A stretch of 64,000 nucleotides of DNA from Promethearchaeia archaeon. GTDB lineage: Archaea; Asgardarchaeota; Lokiarchaeia; Sigyniarchaeales; SOKP01. Made by a program: the position numbers and the translations under genes. The first letter of the stretch is position 1, and each line of letters begins with the position of its first letter. The notes under the pieces were generated by a model. That model did no database searches, was not told the origin of the DNA, and worked only from the letters and a program-made list of their open reading frames with translations. The stretch is taken from contig JAWOCD010000075.1 of assembly GCA_046483985.1 (NCBI GenBank), positions 1 through 64,000 on the forward strand, given 5' to 3'. Positions 22,238 through 52,699 of the stretch are shown piece after piece.

Positions 22238-23533
22238 ATGCCGAAACAAAAACCTCATTTGAACTTAGTAATTATAGGACATATTGACCACGGCAAATCT
22301 ACGATGATGGGCTCCTTGTTAATCCAAACGGGAGCTATCTCCGATAGAGAGGCCAGAGAACTTAAAAAGATTGCTGAAGAGCATGATCGTGAATCATGGG
22401 CAAGCGCCTATGTATTCGATAAACTGAAAGAAGAGCGAGCCCGTGGAATCACCATTGACTTAGCATTCAGAAAGTTCGAGACAGACTCCAAATACTTCAC
22501 CATTATTGATGCTCCAGGTCATGCTGACTTCGTTAAGAACATGATTACTGGCGCGTCTCAAGCCGATGCTGCCATATTGGTAGTCAGCGGAAAGAAAGGT
22601 GAGATGGAAGTCGGTATTGCCGCAAATGGACAGACTCGGGAACATGCCTTTTTAGCTCAAACACTCGGAGTTAGACAGCTGGTCGTTGCCATTAATAAGG
22701 CTGATGTATTTGACTATTCCGAGGAACGTTTTAATGAATGCAAACAACAGATCACTCAATTACTGAAAACCATTGGTTTTAACACCAAAAAGGTTAAATT
22801 TGTGCCAACCAGCGGTCTGAAAATGGTAAACTTATCCGAAAAAAGCGATAAAACCCCTTGGTACGATGGTCCAACATTAATCGATGCAATTGATAAGTTT
22901 ACAGTTCCAGAAAAACCAGTTGATAAACCACTTCGTATGCCAATACAAGATGCCTATAGAATTAAGGGGACTGGAGTTGTCCCAGTAGGCCGAGTTGAAA
23001 CTGGTGTATTAAAGAAGGGAGACAGTATTATACTTATGCCGACGGAATACAAAGGCGAAATTCGCAGTATTGAACAGCACCATGAAGAGATTCCGAAAGC
23101 AGAACCCGGTGATAATGTGGGAGTAAGCATTCGAGGGATTACCTTGAAGGATGTTGGAAGAGGAGATTGCCTCGGACATCCGAACAATCCGCCTAATGTT
23201 ATCACGCCGGATCAAAGCTGGAACGGACAAGTTATCGTGATCTGGCATCCAACTGCAATTAGTCAAGGATATACGCCAGTTGTACACGCTCACACCGCGC
23301 AAGTTGCGGCCCGATTTAAGGCGTTATTAAAGAAACTTGACCCGAAGACTAACTCCGTAATTGAGGACAGTCCGAAGTTTATCAAGAAAAATGAAGCCGC
23401 AATGGTTGAGTTAGTGCCAATCAAGAAGATTTGCCTTGAAAAGTATAAGGATATTCCCGAGATGGGACGGTTCGCTGTCCGCGATATGGGCAGGACCGTA
23501 GCCGTAGGAATTGTCAGAGAAATCAATGAATAA
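22238..23533 (+). CDS. tuf: Translation elongation factor EF-1 alpha
   Basis: GHIDHGKST, ERARGITID, DAPGHADF, NKAD, GRFAVRDMG.TVAVG. Confidence 0.99.
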   Translation: MPKQKPHLNLVIIGHIDHGKSTMMGSLLIQTGAISDREARELKKIAEEHDRESWASAYVFDKLKEERARGITIDLAFRKFETDSKYFTIIDAPGHADFVKNMITGASQADAAILVVSGKKGEMEVGIAANGQTREHAFLAQTLGVRQLVVAINKADVFDYSEERFNECKQQITQLLKTIGFNTKKVKFVPTSGLKMVNLSEKSDKTPWYDGPTLIDAIDKFTVPEKPVDKPLRMPIQDAYRIKGTGVVPVGRVETGVLKKGDSIILMPTEYKGEIRSIEQHHEEIPKAEPGDNVGVSIRGITLKDVGRGDCLGHPNNPPNVITPDQSWNGQVIVIWHPTAISQGYTPVVHAHTAQVAARFKALLKKLDPKTNSVIEDSPKFIKKNEAAMVELVPIKKICLEKYKDIPEMGRFAVRDMGRTVAVGIVREINE

Positions 23534-29404: not shown

Positions 29405-30715
29405 TTACTGAAAATTTTTCCAAGAATCCAATCGAGAGGGATAATTTGCATTTTCAGTGCCTAACCCCTCTTCAATTCTCAAAATTTGGTTATATTTAGC
29501 GAGTCTATCACTTCTGCAAGGTGCCCCACTTTTAATCTGTCCCGAACACAATCCTACTGCTAAATCTCCGATAAATGGATCTTCTGTCTCACCAGATCGA
29601 TGAGAAACCATTACATTAAAATTATGTTTAAATGATAGTTTACATGCTTCGATTGCTTCCGTTAAAGAACCAATTTGATTAACTTTTAAAAGTAAGGCAT
29701 TACCTGCTCCCATATTAATTGCCTTTTCAAGAATATTGATATTAGTTACCGTCAGATCATCATCCACTATTTGAACGGAATTATTTATTTTGCCCGTCAA
29801 TTTAGCAAAAGATTCAAATGCACCCTCATCAAAAGGATCTTCTAAAGATCTAACAATCGGATAATCGTAAAGTAAATCCAAATAGTATTGCACTAACTCT
29901 TCTTCTTTTAATAGTTTTCCATCAATATCATATTTGCCATCCTCATAAAATTCACTGGCTGCGGCATCCATGCCTAAATGAAAGTCTTCCCCAGGAGTAT
30001 ATCCAGAATCTTCTATTGCATTAATAATTACATCTATTGCCTCTCTGGTTCGGGAAAAACTGGGGGCAAAACCTCCCTCATCTCCCACATTTACGGCAGT
30101 TTTCCCATAGCTCTTCGCTAAAAGACTCTTTAAAGTATGATACACTTCTGCAACCATCCTTATTCCTTCAGAAAAGCAACTTGCTCCAACGGGAATTACC
30201 ATAAATTCTTGAATTGAAAGATCATTTCCTGCATGCTCTCCGCCATTTATAATATTAGAAAAAGGATATGGTAACAGATAATCCTCTCTTTCTTTTCCGT
30301 AGGCAAGAGAATGAATATGTTCATACAATGGGATATTTTCCAATTTGGCAGCTAACTTTGCCACGCTCAACGAGACGGATAAAATTGCATTCGCACCGAG
30401 ATTTCCTTTATTCTCTGTACCGTCAAGGTCGATCATCTTCTGATCGATTTTTTCTTGCTCCCTTGGGTCAAATCCTTTTAGCTCTTCTGCAATAATACTA
30501 TTCACATTAGCAACTGCTTGAGTAACATGTTTTCCGTTAAATTTTTTTCCATTGTCTCGCAATTCCAAAGCTTCAGAAACACCTGTGGAGGCTCCCGAAG
30601 GTACTGATGCTCGACCAAATATATCCCCTGCAAAGACATCCGTTTCAACCGTGGGATTTCCACGAGAATCTAAAATCCACCTTGATTGAATTTTTGTAAT
30701 CTTAAAATTCGTCAT
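29405..30715 (-). CDS. eno: Enolase
   Basis: DSRGNPTVE, PSGASTG, GDEGG, LLKVNQIG, SHRSGETED. Confidence 0.99.
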   Translation of the reverse strand: MTNFKITKIQSRWILDSRGNPTVETDVFAGDIFGRASVPSGASTGVSEALELRDNGKKFNGKHVTQAVANVNSIIAEELKGFDPREQEKIDQKMIDLDGTENKGNLGANAILSVSLSVAKLAAKLENIPLYEHIHSLAYGKEREDYLLPYPFSNIINGGEHAGNDLSIQEFMVIPVGASCFSEGIRMVAEVYHTLKSLLAKSYGKTAVNVGDEGGFAPSFSRTREAIDVIINAIEDSGYTPGEDFHLGMDAAASEFYEDGKYDIDGKLLKEEELVQYYLDLLYDYPIVRSLEDPFDEGAFESFAKLTGKINNSVQIVDDDLTVTNINILEKAINMGAGNALLLKVNQIGSLTEAIEACKLSFKHNFNVMVSHRSGETEDPFIGDLAVGLCSGQIKSGAPCRSDRLAKYNQILRIEEGLGTENANYPSRLDSWKNFQ

Positions 30716-41926: not shown

Positions 41927-43741
41927 TTGCATATGACATCCGAGGAAAATGGAAAAGTAATAAGAGCACCTATTGCGTGCATTTTAGGTCATATAGACCA
42001 TGGCAAAACATCTCTTTTAGATTATATAAGGGGTACTGTGGTTCAAGAGAGAGAAGCAGCGGGCATCACTCAGCATATTGGAGCATCTTATTTTCCAATA
42101 GAAGATATTAAGCGCTTTTTGGAAAAATCTAATCCCGACTTTGCCGATAAGAAATTCGATTTACCAGGTATATTGATAGTAGATACTCCTGGACATGCTG
42201 CTTTTATGAATTTAAGAAAACGCGGAGGTGCTGTGGCAGATATCGCTATATTAGTAATCGATGTTATGGATGGCACTATGCCGATCACATGGGAATCTGT
42301 TCGAATATTAAGAGAAAGAGGGACTCCTTTTATTATTGCTGCAAATAAGATTGACCGAATCTCGGGATGGGAACCGAATAAAGATGCTGATTTTCCATTA
42401 ACATATAAGAAACAAAGGGATTTTGTAAAGGAATATTTAGAAGAAAAACTTTACAAGATCATAGGGGACTTTTATGAAGAGGGTTTTAAAGGCATTGATA
42501 GGTATGATAAAATTAAGGACTTCACTAAAAAGATCGCTATAGTTCCTACGAGTGCAAAGACTGGAGAGGGAATATCTACTTTATTAATGGTCTTACTTGG
42601 TCTGACCCAGCAATATCTTACAAAAAATTTGCAATTTTCTGAGGGCGCTGCAGAAGGGGTAGTCTTAGAGGTAAAAAAAGAGAGAGGCTATGGAAAAACG
42701 ATGGATGTTCTTATCTATAATGGAATTGTCCACCAAGGAGATGATTTTATTGTGGGCGGTTTGTCCCAGCCGATTAAATCACGGGTTCGGGCATTACTCG
42801 CTCCAAAGGCTTTGGATGAGATAAGGGATCCAAGAAAAAAATTTGAATCAAAAGAAATGATAAGCGCTGCAGCGGGGATTAAGATTTTAGCCCCAGATAT
42901 TGACGATGTAGTTGCCGGTTCTCCTTTTAAGGTAATCTCAGACCCAGAAGAGGAACGGAATGTTTATGATCAAATTGAAGAAGAAATAGAAAAAATTAAG
43001 ATCAAAACCAAAAAAGAAGGAGTAGTACTGAAAGCGGATACTTTAGGCTCTTTAGAAGCGTTAGAAAACCATTTTAGCCGAAATAATGTTTCCATCAGTA
43101 TTGCGGATGTGGGACCCATTAAGAAAGAGGATATTATTAATGCATCGATCGTTCGGAAATATGACCCGTTCTCCGCAGTTGTATTGGGTTTTAATGTCCC
43201 TATTTTGCCCGAAGCAGAAGAGCACGCCCGAGAATACAATATTAGAATATTTACTAATAATGTAATATATCGGTTGCTCGAAGATTATATTGAATATTCA
43301 GAACGAAGAAGAGCTGAAGAAACAGCGAAAAAATTAAGCGAACTGATTTTACCCGCAAAGCTCAAAATCTTCCCGGAATATATTTTCCGCAAATCTAACC
43401 CTGCTGTATTTGGTATAAGTGTTGAAGCTGGAACATTAGTTCCAAAAGACCCCTTGATAACCGATGATGGCAAAAAAGTAAAGAGGGTTCATGAGATTCA
43501 AGACAGAGGCCAAAACTTGGATAAGGCTGAAAAGGGAGATGATGTTGCGATATCGATGAGAGGGACAGAGATAGGAAGGGATATAGAGACCGATGATATA
43601 CTTTATGTAAGAGTTCCTGAATCGCACGTGAGACAGTTGTATCATAAGTTCTTAAATGAATTAACCTCGGATCAAAAAGAAGCATTAAAAGAATACACAA
43701 TGCTTATGAGAGAGATACGCCACCCATGGTGGGGCGTTTAA
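41927..43741 (+). CDS. infB: Translation initiation factor aIF5B (IF-2)
   Basis: GHIDHGKT, EAAGITQHIGA, DTPGH, NKID, KADTLGSLEAL; the start may be the ATG at 41933. Confidence 0.98.
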   Translation: MHMTSEENGKVIRAPIACILGHIDHGKTSLLDYIRGTVVQEREAAGITQHIGASYFPIEDIKRFLEKSNPDFADKKFDLPGILIVDTPGHAAFMNLRKRGGAVADIAILVIDVMDGTMPITWESVRILRERGTPFIIAANKIDRISGWEPNKDADFPLTYKKQRDFVKEYLEEKLYKIIGDFYEEGFKGIDRYDKIKDFTKKIAIVPTSAKTGEGISTLLMVLLGLTQQYLTKNLQFSEGAAEGVVLEVKKERGYGKTMDVLIYNGIVHQGDDFIVGGLSQPIKSRVRALLAPKALDEIRDPRKKFESKEMISAAAGIKILAPDIDDVVAGSPFKVISDPEEERNVYDQIEEEIEKIKIKTKKEGVVLKADTLGSLEALENHFSRNNVSISIADVGPIKKEDIINASIVRKYDPFSAVVLGFNVPILPEAEEHAREYNIRIFTNNVIYRLLEDYIEYSERRRAEETAKKLSELILPAKLKIFPEYIFRKSNPAVFGISVEAGTLVPKDPLITDDGKKVKRVHEIQDRGQNLDKAEKGDDVAISMRGTEIGRDIETDDILYVRVPESHVRQLYHKFLNELTSDQKEALKEYTMLMREIRHPWWGV

Positions 43742-43839: not shown

Positions 43840-45300
43840 ATGAAAGACGTTGACAATATCTTCCGTAAAGTCCTAAAAAGAATTCGCCCTACTGAAAACG
43901 AGCTTAATTTAATAAATCGAATAGTTGAAGAGGTTAAAACGCTTCTCTCGGAAAAAGCAAGAGAATTAGATATAGTATATAAAAGTATCCAACCCCAAGG
44001 ATCAACTGGCATAAAACAAACCCAATTAAGAAATGATTTTGATATAGATCTTTTTATTGGTCTGGATTATGAACTCTATAACCAAGAAATTGAAGGTCTA
44101 AGTAAAAATAAACGAAAGGAGCAATTTAAATCTCTTTTTAAACAGTTTTGCAATAAGTGGATTATTCCAGCAATTTCTATTGACAAAATTAAAGATCCTC
44201 GGTTATTTTATGCTGAACATCCTTATGTAAAGGCAAAATATGAAGATCCAAGACAAAGTCAACAATATTTAGAATTAGATATAGTTCTTTATTTCGAGTT
44301 AGAGAAAGAATATATTAAAAAGAATGGACCCATTACCGCAGTAGATAGAACTCCATGGCATGGCAAATTTGTGAAGAATAATCTGACTGAAAGACAAAAA
44401 GATCATGTGAGACTTTTAAAGCAGTTCTTTAAAGCATGTCATAGCTATGGCGATAAAAGTGCGGTGGGAAGAGTGGGATTCATCGGATATAGTGCTGAAT
44501 TATTGATATATCATTATGGAGATATTCTCAATGTGTTTCAGCATTTTAAGGAACTTAAAATAAATCCTTTAGACAATTTTGAGAGGGATCCCTCGAAACT
44601 TAAAAATATTAAACGATTTCAAAATGACTACCTCATTATTATTGATCCTGTGGATAACCAGAGAAATGTAGCATCAGCCATCTCACCGAGAGCCTATAAA
44701 TATTGCAACCAACAAATTTTGGAATTTCTTCAAGCTCCTAATGAATCATATTTTCGAATTGAATCGATTCCTCCAATAGGTAAAGATAAAGATAAGACAG
44801 AGCAGTTATTCATAACTGAACTTGAAAATACAGATATGGAATATCACTACACCGAAAATCGGGATAAATTATATTCTCTGGGATCTTATATCAAAAATAT
44901 CGGAGAAAGAGAATTTACCCATGAAAAACGGTTTGGGACCATTATTTATGAACTTTATTTTGAATTAGAAAAAAAAAGATACTGCTTGGCATTCTATTGT
45001 GAGGATCCTTCAATTTCCCAAACCTATATTCGAAAGGGCCCCCCCAAGAAGAAAAAGCACCATGTAAAGAAATTTAAACAGAAAAATCCTAAAACATTTG
45101 AAAAAAATGGCTTTGTATGGACTGAAACTAAAAGAGAATACACTCTATTTAAAAATTTCTTGAATGACTATATTCCGAAAAAGTTACCTAACAATTTTAG
45201 AATAAAGAATATTTCTGGTGCTTCTCAGACTCAGAGTACTACTGGGAAAAAAACCCTTTATGTTTTAAAAAATATGATATTACCCTTTTTCTTGGACTAG
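43840..45300 (+). CDS. cca: CCA-adding enzyme (class I)
   Basis: QGS...T.L..DFDIDLF, YAEHPYV, AVDRTPWH, GF.GY..ELLI..YG, DPVD..RNVA. Confidence 0.93.
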   Translation: MKDVDNIFRKVLKRIRPTENELNLINRIVEEVKTLLSEKARELDIVYKSIQPQGSTGIKQTQLRNDFDIDLFIGLDYELYNQEIEGLSKNKRKEQFKSLFKQFCNKWIIPAISIDKIKDPRLFYAEHPYVKAKYEDPRQSQQYLELDIVLYFELEKEYIKKNGPITAVDRTPWHGKFVKNNLTERQKDHVRLLKQFFKACHSYGDKSAVGRVGFIGYSAELLIYHYGDILNVFQHFKELKINPLDNFERDPSKLKNIKRFQNDYLIIIDPVDNQRNVASAISPRAYKYCNQQILEFLQAPNESYFRIESIPPIGKDKDKTEQLFITELENTDMEYHYTENRDKLYSLGSYIKNIGEREFTHEKRFGTIIYELYFELEKKRYCLAFYCEDPSISQTYIRKGPPKKKKHHVKKFKQKNPKTFEKNGFVWTETKREYTLFKNFLNDYIPKKLPNNFRIKNISGASQTQSTTGKKTLYVLKNMILPFFLD

Positions 45301-47945: not shown

Positions 47946-50225
47946 ATGGTTAAGGTAAAAAATCCACAAGAAATCGCCGAAATGGTTACTGCTGGGTCAT
48001 ATAAGAAAAAACGTCTGTTTTCGATCGTTGCGCATATTGATTGCTGAATGAATGTCTCATTTAGCCAATAACATGGCAAAACGACGGCAACGGACTATTT
48101 AATGCGAAGAGCAGGGCTTATGCGTCCCGAAGATGCGGGAGAGCTCCAAATGACAGACTCAGATGAAGAAGAACAAGCAAGAGGGATTACGATCTTTACT
48201 TCCGTGGTGTTACTTGCGTTTAATGATCCACGGGAAGAAGAAGGGGTAGAACCTTATATTTTCCAAATAAACGATACACCGGGTCACATCTCATTTACTG
48301 GGGAAGTTTCCAGAGCACTTAGAAGCAGTGATGGAGCGTTGATCTTAGTTGACGCTCTTGAAGGAGTGATGACCCAAACAGAGACGAATATTAATCTTGC
48401 TGTTGGAGAGGAATTATGTAAACCTGTTTTATTTATTAATAAAGTTGATAGGTTAATCTCTGAAATCAAACTTTCACCTCAAGAAACATATGATAAAATT
48501 GATGAAATAACAAAACAAGTTAATGAATTGATTAGAAAAGTCAGACCTGAATGGTCAGATTGGGGAGTCGAATTTGCAGAAAATTCCGTTGCCATCGGTT
48601 CTGCAAAAGATGGATGGGGCTTCACTTATGAAATCCTAAAAGAGAACGATTATACACCTGTGAAAGTTTTTGAAAAATATGAGGAAGGAGATATCCAATG
48701 GTTAAGAGAAAATCTCCCGTTGGATGAACCGATGTTGAGAATGGTAGTTGATCATTTACCAGATCCAGTTACAGCCTCGAAATACAGGATACCTGAAATT
48801 TGGCAAGGGGATTTAGATTCTGAACTAGGGCAAGCATTACAGAAAAGTGATCCAAACGGGCCATTATATGGGATTATTTCCAAAATTTTCTTAGATCCTG
48901 CACAAAATTACCGAGCAACCTTAATAGGAAGGATATTTTCGGGTACAATGGACGAATCGGACACTTTATATCTGCTGAACAGTCGAAAGAAAAGTAGAAT
49001 AAAACGGTTAGGCGTAATGGAAATAACAGATATTTTAAATATCAAAGAAATACCAGCAGGGAATATTTTTGCAATGTATGGTCCGATGTGTCCATCCGGG
49101 GAAACTTTTGTGGATAACGTTGGGCTTGCTAAGGACAAAGATAATATTGATGAGATTCCTTCCTTTGAAAATATTAATTATGCGTGCAAAGCAGTAGTTT
49201 CTCGAAGCATTAAACCCAAAAATCCGCATGATATCGCAAAGTTAGGACAAGTGGTAAAGAAATGGTTAATGGCGGATCCAACCGCAGAGTTTACGATGGA
49301 CAAGGATTCTAAGGAGTTTATCCTTTCTGGAATTGATCCTCTGCAGATTGATATCCTTACCAAACGAATTAACAACCAAGTGGAGATCAATATCGGAGAG
49401 CCTATTATTGTATACAGAGAACGAATTACAAACAAAAGTGCCACGTTTCATACTAAATCTTCAAACGGTCATAACAGAATTCAACTGTATATTGAACCCT
49501 TAGATGAAAAGACTCTTGACCTTCTGGAGTCGGGAAAAATTACCGACTTAATGAACGAAGATGAAAGAGCCGAATTATTGAGAGACGTTGGATGGGACAA
49601 AAAAGAAGCAAAGAGAGTGGTAGATGTCTACAAGGGTAATCTCTTAGTAAACGCCACGAAGGGGTTACAAAGATTTGACCGAGTGAAAAGCTACTTATCT
49701 GGCGCTTTCCGTGATTGGTGTGAAAATTGTATTTTAGCGAAAGAACCTGCTTTAGGACTGCGTTTAGTATTTACGGATTTAACCATTCACGAGGACCCGG
49801 CACACACCGGGTATAATCAAATAGCAAGCATGAGTTATGCTGCTTTTTCCCTTGCAATGATGGATGCAGATCCACATCTTTATGAACCTATCCAGAAAAT
49901 TGATATTAAAACTCCCTCTGGCACAGATCCTGGTGTATTAGCCGTCATAAATAAGCATCGTGGAAGAGTTAATAATGTTGTACCCGATGGAGAATATGTC
50001 CGAATCAGCGGACAATTACCCGCCTCGGAAACCGTTGGTATTGCCGATGAAATTCGAGGATCTACTCAAGGACGTGCCTTTTTTGGATATGAATTTCTCG
50101 GATTTGAACGCGTTCCAGCCTCAATAGAGCCAGACTTGATCCTAGAAATTCGCAAGCGAAAAGGTCTTAAAGTCGAGCTTCCTGATGTTTCCTCATGGCA
50201 CCGATTTCTCTATAGAAAAACATAA
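47946..50225 (+). CDS. fusA: Elongation factor 2 family GTPase, intron-split: join(47946..48041,48072..50225), 749 aa
   Basis: Exon 1 MVKVKNPQEIAEMVTAGSYKKKRLFSIVAHID; exon 2 HGKTTATDYL...RGITI...DTPGH...NKVD; EF-2 domains IV/V; whether it is the main EF-2 or the Asgard paralogue is unresolved. Confidence 0.93.
48042..48071 (+). other. Predicted 30-nt bulge-helix-bulge (BHB) mRNA intron
   Basis: TGCTGAATGAATGTCTCATTTAGCCAATAA with in-frame TGA and TAA; 4-bp helix AUUG/CAAU, 3-nt bulges AUU and AAC, 9-bp inner stem; cutting after the 2nd nt of each bulge restores GAT-CAT. Confidence 0.9.
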
Positions 50226-52063: not shown

Positions 52064-52699
52064 TTGGTTCTTATGGATGACGAGAAATATTTACTTATTA
52101 TCGGCAACTCAAATGTAGGAAAATCCTCAATCACAAGGCTTTTACTCCCCCATCCTAAGCGATTTAAAGGAAAAACAGGAAAAAGTCCTGGCAGCACTTT
52201 GCAGATAAAACCCATTTTTCAGCATGGCATGTCATATAAAATTGTTGATCTGCCGGGATTTGGATATATGCGTCATTCAAGCAAGAGGAGAGAAGATCAT
52301 CTTAAGAAGCAGATTGTGGTCCATATTGAAAAAAAACATCATCGCTATTTTTTTGCCCTTGTGGTGATCAATATTCTGCGTATCGAAGATGAATTGGAAA
52401 AATACCATTATCTAAATCAAAAAACAATTCCTTTATCGTTTGAATTAATTAACTTTTTGCGCGAGTTTCAAATTCCCTTACTGGTCATAATGAATAAAAT
52501 AGATAAACTTAATAATTTCCATGTGAGACGGAGAATTCGCCTTTTTGTGAATACAGCCACCCAATATGGTTTAAATCTCCTTCATCTAGATGAATATCGT
52601 CACGAAGACGAAATAATTCCATATCTAGAATTCTCTGCCCTCAATAAAACGAATTTGGGAAAACTTAAGAAAGAACTCCACTATCGATTAACCCATTGA
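52064..52699 (+). CDS. engB: EngB/YihA-family GTP-binding protein
   Basis: GNSNVGKSS, GKSPGST, DLPGFGY, NKID, FSAL. Confidence 0.88.
   Translation: MVLMDDEKYLLIIGNSNVGKSSITRLLLPHPKRFKGKTGKSPGSTLQIKPIFQHGMSYKIVDLPGFGYMRHSSKRREDHLKKQIVVHIEKKHHRYFFALVVINILRIEDELEKYHYLNQKTIPLSFELINFLREFQIPLLVIMNKIDKLNNFHVRRRIRLFVNTATQYGLNLLHLDEYRHEDEIIPYLEFSALNKTNLGKLKKELHYRLTH

What the first reader, a model, noticed from the sequence alone, without database searches (positions are those of the whole stretch)
48036..48104. The intron could act as an on/off switch coupling EF-2 output to splicing, and may flag a hidden class of split genes
Seen in sequence: unspliced mRNA gives only a 33-aa peptide (…AHIDC-stop). 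The 30-nt length preserves the frame, yet two stops block read-through, and re-initiation at ATG 48102 would give a protein without a P-loop. The other two translational GTPases here (tuf 22238, infB 41927) carry the same HIDHGK motif uninterrupted, so the insertion is gene-specific. Inference: functional protein is gated by EndA/RtcB activity, conceptually like non-spliceosomal HAC1/XBP1 splicing in eukaryotes, which also uses a tRNA ligase. Gene callers will report such genes as N-terminally truncated, so more BHB mRNA introns may be hidden in related genomes. A regulatory role is speculative; the intron may simply be tolerated.
Basis: inference. Interest (0 to 1): 0.75.

Follow-up and report, generated by a model that had tools for sequence, protein, structure and literature searches.

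The report
tRNA-type intron splits Asgard EF-2 gene
The only complete elongation factor 2 gene of this Loki-type Asgard archaeon is broken by a 30-base insert shaped like a tRNA intron, so its mRNA very probably has to be cut and rejoined; several other genes carry such inserts too, but nothing shows that this one works as an on/off switch.

Summary
Bases 48042-48071 form a canonical bulge-helix-bulge (BHB) intron with two in-frame stops. Removing exactly these 30 bases is the only excision that restores HIDHGKT, and it gives a 749-aa EF-2. This is the canonical aEF-2; the intact second copy is the aEF-2p paralog. EndA and RtcB are encoded. Both exons are under purifying selection.

About 27 of about 121 family genomes carry a 30-31-nt BHB intron in this gene, at five sites, with compensatory base changes; the rest are uninterrupted. 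The hidden-class idea holds: the same genome has BHB inserts in its only aIF2-gamma (same P-loop motif), AMP phosphorylase, dnaG and a deacetylase. So the insertion is not specific to EF-2.

The switch idea is unsupported: presence is patchy, sites vary, and the splicing enzymes are housekeeping ones. The best reading is obligatory, probably constitutive splicing, with stops as a possible fail-safe. No RNA covers the junction. Papers I could search confirm a coding-region case only for cbf5. This scan noted the same kind of intron earlier in other Asgard genomes, including in EF-2.

The parts
47946..48041 (+). Exon 1 of aEF-2 (codons 1-32, ends ...AHID, first half of the G1 loop)
   Evidence: aligns to residues 1-32 of intron-less relatives; pN about 0.16-0.25 against pS about 0.8-1.1
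48042..48071 (+). 30-nt BHB intron, phase 0, between Asp32 and His33; in-frame TGA (48045-47) and TAA (48069-71)
   Evidence: only excision that restores HIDHGKT; absent at exactly this point in most relatives
48072..50225 (+). Exon 2 of aEF-2 (HGKT... to stop); domain IV loops SSNGHN and HEDPAHTG
   Evidence: TIGR00490 aEF-2, E 1e-170; loops match the canonical Asgard aEF-2 described in PMC6143161
48036..48039 (+). Central helix H, exon strand (AUUG)
   Evidence: pairs 4/4 with 48066-48069
48040..48042 (+). 5' bulge AU|U, predicted cut between 48041 and 48042
   Evidence: BHB geometry agrees with the protein-defined junction
48043..48065 (+). Intron stem-loop h' (9 bp, 5-nt loop)
   Evidence: tested pairs have probability 0.7-1.0
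48066..48069 (+). Central helix H, intron strand (CAAU)
48070..48072 (+). 3' bulge AA|C, predicted cut between 48071 and 48072
48013..48035 (+). 5' arm of the extended exon-exon helix h
   Evidence: exon-exon duplex -20.3 kcal/mol against -7.8 +/- 3.0 in 77 alleles without an intron here
48073..48095 (+). 3' arm of the extended exon-exon helix h
48102..48104 (+). Internal ATG (Met43 of the spliced protein) that an ORF caller takes as the start; the product lacks the P-loop

Best explanation
This is a tRNA-type (BHB) mini-intron in the mRNA of the essential, canonical EF-2 of a Lokiarchaeia (Promethearchaeota) archaeon. Shown: the DNA cannot encode EF-2 without precise loss of 48042-48071; the RNA can fold into a canonical BHB whose cut points equal that junction; EndA and RtcB genes are present; relatives show the same kind of insert with compensatory changes. 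Inferred: the transcript folds into the rod 48013-48095, EndA cuts both bulges, the long exon-exon helix holds the halves, and RtcB joins them, giving a 749-aa EF-2. Splicing is probably constitutive, and the intron is a tolerated passenger, gained now and then at conserved motifs and often lost again. The in-frame stops plausibly act as a fail-safe, so that an unspliced message yields a 33-aa peptide rather than a full-length EF-2 with a broken P-loop (about 0.5 for this last step).
For: Unique excision and canonical BHB. Gene is the sole translocase-type EF-2; the C59 copy lacks the domain IV loops. Purifying selection on both exons. About 27 of about 121 family genomes have 30-31-nt BHB inserts at five sites in codons 30-63; none was seen in 18 genomes of other families. 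At site 63 the stem covaries (G-C to A-U in 4 alleles, U-A to A-U in 4), and the exon codons forming the helix are fixed (TCA GAT in 19/19 against 20/63 without the intron). Motif-free census: all 7 frame-breaking inserts in two genomes have a 4/4 central helix (one after re-reading on the sense strand), against 5 of 83 stop-free in-frame inserts, none of which has the full motif. EndA at C32:38230-38829 and two RtcB genes. Patchy presence on the gene tree. Stops: every 3n intron seen has one; the T of the site-63 TAA is invariant although its partner varies; site-32 introns of three lineages stop at codon 2.
Against: No spliced transcript was seen: RNA contigs identical to this strain start at 48104 and none crosses the junction. 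The canonical register is a minor state in the computed ensemble (0.14). Five other site-32 alleles have an A-G mismatch in the central helix, and four of them have no unusual exon-exon helix. Stops at all five sites would arise by chance with probability about 0.1. The counts come from related genomes and are not independent.
Confidence: 0.78

Rival explanations
1. Regulated switch: splicing is rate-limiting and tuned by growth state, so EF-2 output, and translation capacity in general, follows EndA/RtcB activity.
For: Two essential translation GTPases in this genome (aEF-2, aIF2-gamma) depend on splicing at the P-loop. Stops are retained. A negative-regulator role was proposed for the cbf5 intron (PMC2738675).
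Against: About 78% of family genomes lack any intron here, sister species differ, and five sites are used. Introns also sit in unrelated metabolic genes. EndA and RtcB are housekeeping enzymes, with no sensor like IRE1 (own knowledge). No expression data.
Confidence: 0.12
2. The insert is skipped by the ribosome (bypassing or read-through) without RNA cutting.
For: The length is a multiple of three, and the genome has a predicted tRNA-Sec that could read UGA.
Against: No matched take-off and landing codon (GAT against TAA). A second stop (TAA) follows. Homologous inserts of 29, 31 and 32 nt occur in EF-2, aEF-2p and aIF2-gamma. The ends fit EndA geometry.
Confidence: 0.03
3. The gene is a pseudogene, or is used as the 707-aa product from ATG 48102, with aEF-2p doing the job.
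For: A second EF-2-family gene is intact (C59).
Against: The C59 copy lacks both domain IV loops, which PMC6143161 takes as unable to translocate. Exon 1 is as conserved as exon 2. There is no other lesion in 749 codons. The 707-aa product has no P-loop.
Confidence: 0.03
4. Assembly artefact.
For: The genome is an assembly in 128 contigs, and no read across the insert was seen.
Against: Independent assemblies show 30-31-nt BHB inserts at the same codon (G146, L288, L290, L291, L294) and at four others, with compensatory changes.
Confidence: 0.02

Closest known systems
cbf5 (pseudouridine synthase) pre-mRNA intron of Desulfurococcales and Sulfolobales (Watanabe 2002; Yoshinari 2006; Yokobori 2009, PMC2738675)
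   Same: Short BHB-bounded intron inside an archaeal coding sequence, placed in a catalytic motif so that it must be removed; EndA-type cut points; secondary losses in some lineages.
   Different: cbf5 is one gene with one site and one inferred gain, mostly with non-canonical BHB, and is confirmed by cDNA. Here the gene is an essential translation GTPase in Asgard archaea, the BHB is canonical, five sites occur in one gene, several genes per genome are affected, and splicing is not yet shown.
Archaeal tRNA and rRNA BHB introns, including those of Asgard tRNAs (bioRxiv 10.64898/2026.10.13.758758)
   Same: Same motif, similar size, same presumed enzymes, patchy presence and repeated gains.
   Different: The host is an mRNA coding region. 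The preprint does not mention mRNA, EF-2 or cbf5.
HVO_1309 5' UTR BHB intron of Haloferax volcanii (PMC7714728)
   Same: EndA acts on an mRNA.
   Different: It lies outside the coding sequence and does not interrupt a reading frame.
HAC1/XBP1 non-spliceosomal splicing (PMC13149111)
   Same: Endonuclease plus RNA ligase, no spliceosome, and protein output depends on excision.
   Different: Cutting is by the stress-activated IRE1 at two stem-loops. Here the substrate is a BHB for housekeeping EndA, and no regulation is shown.

Membership tests
EndA-spliced BHB intron | 4-bp central helix flanked by two 3-nt bulges on opposite strands | tested here: met
   AUUG/CAAU, bulges AUU and AAC; 0.6 kcal/mol above the minimum-energy fold
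EndA-spliced BHB intron | Cuts after the second base of each bulge give the functional exon junction | tested here: met
   only 48042-48071 restores HIDHGKT; intron-less alleles are collinear there
EndA-spliced BHB intron | Outer helices h (exon) and h' (intron) | tested here: met
   h' 9/9 pairs; h 3 bp plus an extended helix
EndA-spliced BHB intron | Host encodes EndA and an RNA ligase | tested here: met
   PF01974 and PF02778 at C32, one copy found; PF01139 twice
EndA-spliced BHB intron | Spliced RNA or excised intron observed; cleavage by EndA in vitro | tested here: inconclusive
Canonical Asgard aEF-2 (Narrowe 2018) | Diphthamide loop HxDxxH with R702 replaced by T; second loop kept with K584 changed | tested here: met
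   HEDPAHTG and SSNGHN in the window gene, absent from the C59 copy. Position 703 is G here, not the S or Q that the paper reports for most Lokiarchaeota.
Regulated non-spliceosomal splicing switch (HAC1/XBP1 type) | Condition-dependent splicing by a signal-activated nuclease | not testable with these tools
   no expression data
Regulated non-spliceosomal splicing switch (HAC1/XBP1 type) | Intron position conserved across the clade | tested here: not met
   2 of about 121 family genomes at this site; about 78% have none
Group I / group II or other Rfam RNA | Ribozyme core or Rfam match | tested here: not met
   30 nt long; no Rfam hit at E up to 1

The most novel reading that the evidence does not exclude
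Lokiarchaeia run a genome-wide, spliceosome-free mRNA splicing system. BHB mini-introns are gained repeatedly in the catalytic motifs of core genes, notably the P-loops of translation GTPases, and premature stops guard against unspliced products. The shared dependence of EF-2 and aIF2-gamma on EndA/RtcB is used to throttle translation in slow-growing cells.
Probability: 0.12. Interest if true: 0.92.

Novelty: new variant of a known kind. Interest (0 to 1): 0.7.

Why it matters
Papers I could search confirm endonuclease splicing inside an archaeal coding sequence only for cbf5 (PMC2738675; PMC7714728). Here an essential translation factor, and at least four more genes in the same genome, appear to need it, in a group of the Asgard archaea, the closest prokaryotic relatives of eukaryotes. 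If confirmed, intron-split protein genes and intron gain and loss are routine in these archaea without a spliceosome. That bears on the origin of eukaryotic introns and on how coupled transcription and translation coexists with splicing. In practice, marker proteins such as EF-2 and aIF2-gamma are liable to be truncated in annotations of a fifth to a third of these genomes. The claim is testable by RT-PCR or an in vitro EndA assay.

Tried and rejected
RNA evidence: the look-up of sequencing runs gave three metatranscriptomes with 5-9% of the words. Short contigs identical to this strain lie at 48104-48363, 48170-48320 and 49623-49922, but none crosses the junction, so they say nothing about splicing. 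An exact junction search (spliced or unspliced) in JGI metagenomes found nothing, nor did the intron stem in viral contigs.

A motif-only BHB scan of the genome was too noisy (80,878 hits, 1,468 after an ORF filter). The shared-site comparison with G070 returned mostly ordinary homologous coding DNA and was discarded. The C102 candidate from that run is a gene end, not an intron; a 41-nt C32 hit and one G070 hit were not accepted.

No second copy or donor of the intron sequence exists in the assembly: best match 23/30, shuffles 21-24. The 7-codon ORF inside the intron (ATG 48048) is not conserved. The sigma-70 promoter scan was at chance level and is not suited to archaea. My first guess that the gene was the paralog aEF-2p was wrong. 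The exon-exon helix is extreme in G000 and G146 but not in four other site-32 alleles, and G000 has other positions with z below -3, so I treat it as modest support.

Full report
Observation. The + strand has a 33-codon ORF at 47946-48047 and a 707-codon ORF at 48102-50225. The long ORF matches archaeal EF-2 from model position 43 on, so it lacks the G1 P-loop. Removing 48042-48071 joins the two into 749 codons. Of all frame-keeping excisions tried, only this one gives HIDHGKT. The same ends are the cut points of a canonical bulge-helix-bulge: AUUG (48036-39) pairs with CAAU (48066-69), the bulges are AU|U and AA|C, the intron stem has 9 pairs, and the exons pair beyond the motif. The 65-nt fold beats all 200 shuffles (z = -3.0).

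Which gene. The assembly has two EF-2-family genes, 33% identical. The window gene has HEDPAHTG and SSNGHN in domain IV; the copy on C59 has neither loop. Narrowe et al. (PMC6143161) describe the R-to-T change as the mark of canonical aEF-2 in Asgard genomes with two copies, and loss of the loops as the mark of aEF-2p. So the interrupted gene is the only translocase-type EF-2. Against five relatives, synonymous sites are saturated (pS about 0.75-1.1) while pN is 0.16-0.25 in exon 1 and 0.15-0.17 in exon 2. Exon 1 is therefore translated as part of the protein. Relatives are Promethearchaeota (Lokiarchaeia) by record title. One EndA and two RtcB genes are present.

Relatives. I searched the first 110 codons in 154 genomes of the order and examined the broken ones. 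By my count about 27 of about 121 family genomes carry an insert, and none of 18 genomes from other families shows a stop or insert. All inserts are 30-31 nt and fit BHB geometry at the protein-defined junction. They lie after His30 (4 genomes), after Asp32 (this genome and G146), inside Lys35 (1), after codon 61 (2) and after codon 63 (about 20). Two genomes have two introns. A pattern search of metagenomes added four EF-2 loci with a 30-nt insert after Asp32. Presence is scattered over the gene tree, and sister species often differ. This fits a few gains followed by many losses, or exchange of alleles; I did not test which.

Evidence of selection on the RNA structure. In the 19 site-63 introns the stem shows double changes (G-C to A-U in 4 alleles, U-A to A-U in 4) and the central helix is invariant. 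The exon codons that form the helix are TCA GAT in 19 of 19 intron-bearing alleles but 20 of 63 others (related sequences, so the nominal P overstates). Exon-exon pairing is stronger in intron-bearing alleles at site 63, and G000 and G146 rank first and second of 79 at site 32. Four metagenomic site-32 alleles do not show this.

Stops. Every intron of 30 nt that I saw has an in-frame stop, and no stop-free 30-nt insert appeared. At site 63 the T of the TAA is invariant while its partner is A, G, U or C. At site 32, three unlike sequences all stop at intron codon 2 (TGA here, TAA in G146 and in L288-L294). But the chance that five such A+T-rich inserts all hold a stop is about 0.1. A fail-safe role is plausible, not shown.

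Is there a hidden class? I took 2 Mb of a family member (G070; 853 genes comparable) and looked for inserts without using the motif. In this genome four well-anchored inserts break a frame: in aIF2-gamma (C40, 32 nt), AMP phosphorylase (C32, 30 nt), a deacetylase-family gene by its motif (C23, 31 nt) and dnaG (C13, 38 nt; first seen on the wrong strand, then checked). All have a 4/4 central helix; the stems of the last two are weaker. G070 has three such inserts, all with BHB. Of 83 in-frame, stop-free inserts, 5 have a 4/4 helix and none has the full motif. aIF2-gamma is single-copy, and its insert splits the lysine codon of HVDHGKT. Sixteen of 54 family genomes have a 29-32-nt insert at that exact point, and three have one at the same codon of aEF-2p. 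The census is a lower bound: it covers about 60% of one relative and misses sites shared with it.

The class claim is supported. The annotation claim is true where an intron exists: the 671-aa EF-2 product of G024, which lacks G1 and switch I, is an NCBI protein. It is not systematic, since most genomes are intact. 'Gene-specific' is wrong, because aIF2-gamma is hit in the same motif. The switch is not supported: a regulatory element in an essential gene would be expected at a stable site, whereas presence and position here vary between close relatives. It cannot be excluded without expression data.

Mechanism. Shown: the need for exact excision, the BHB fold, the enzymes' genes, and covariation in relatives. 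Inferred: the transcript folds into a rod from about 48013 to 48095; EndA cuts both bulges; the exon helix keeps the halves together; RtcB ligates them; ribosomes that arrive first stop at codon 34 and release a 33-aa peptide. I put 0.78 on obligatory, largely constitutive splicing, 0.12 on a regulated switch, and little on bypassing, pseudogene or artefact. No RNA covered the junction.

Comparison with known systems. It meets every sequence feature of an EndA-spliced BHB intron that I could test; RNA-level proof is missing. The closest case is the cbf5 intron (PMC2738675), which also splits a catalytic motif. That paper says no other archaeal pre-mRNA splicing had been confirmed, though introns in other genes were predicted, and a 2020 study still lists cbf5 and one 5' UTR intron (PMC7714728). 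A 2026 preprint on Asgard tRNA introns does not mention mRNA. My literature search covers open papers only. HAC1/XBP1 is an analogy in outcome, not in enzyme or control. Earlier notes of this scan describe the same kind of intron in many Asgard genes, including EF-2 in other genomes, and a few report spliced RNA for other genes. I did not check those RNA claims and do not count them as evidence.

Verdict. A real BHB mRNA intron in the essential EF-2, one member of a multi-gene, multi-site set in Lokiarchaeia. New variant of a known kind; interest 0.7.

Noticed in passing
G000:C40:3390-3421 (-), L233: The single aIF2-gamma gene has a 32-nt BHB insert in the lysine codon of HVDHGKT; 16 of 54 family genomes have a 29-32-nt insert at this point. 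The gene also has a long N-terminal extension of about 110 residues.
   Followed up: yes
G000:C32:149428-149457 (-), L234: AMP phosphorylase is split by a 30-nt insert with a 4/4 central helix and a 9/9 stem, in the DKHSTGG motif.
   Followed up: partly
G000:C13, about 29820-29858 (+), L283: dnaG is split by a 38-nt insert after GAIFGQ, with a 4/4 central helix and an irregular stem.
   Followed up: partly
G000:C23:2444-2474 (+), L235: A deacetylase-family gene (by its DLHTGDG motif) is split by a 31-nt insert with a 4/4 central helix and a weak stem.
   Followed up: partly
L071, L072, L073 (aEF-2p of G023, G003, G015): 31-32-nt BHB inserts in the P-loop lysine codon of the paralog aEF-2p, the same phase and codon as in aIF2-gamma.
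   Followed up: yes
L111, L112, L290: EF-2 genes with two BHB inserts each (sites 32+63, 30+63, and probably 32+61).
   Followed up: partly
G070:C1 (L133-L232): Three BHB inserts of 28-30 nt in genes that are intact in this genome; gene identities not determined.
   Followed up: partly
L116, L117 (G082): The assembly breaks at the site-63 intron, with the intron on both contig ends; other EF-2 and aIF2-gamma genes also break near intron sites, which could reflect mixed alleles.
   Followed up: no
L013, L016, L022, L094: At sites 61 and 63 the intron's first six bases resemble the last six exon bases (TCAGAT then TTAGAT), hinting at origin by a short duplication plus fold-back.
   Followed up: no
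L089 (G024:C10:652107-652775) and L087 (G011:C171): An extra partial aEF-2 copy (residues 486-707, 66% identical) in G024, and an apparent frameshift in aEF-2p of G011.
   Followed up: no
window, spliced EF-2 nt 204-271 (about 48180-48247): A second strong exon hairpin just after switch I (z = -5.3 against relatives), with no insert.
   Followed up: no
window 22238-23533, 41927-43741, 43840-45300, 52064-52699: The window also holds EF-1alpha, aIF5B, the CCA-adding enzyme and an EngB GTPase near EF-2.
   Followed up: no
G000 genome: Only one EndA subunit was found and ARAGORN called only about 22 tRNAs, which may mean many tRNAs are interrupted by introns it misses; a tRNA-Sec is predicted.
   Followed up: no
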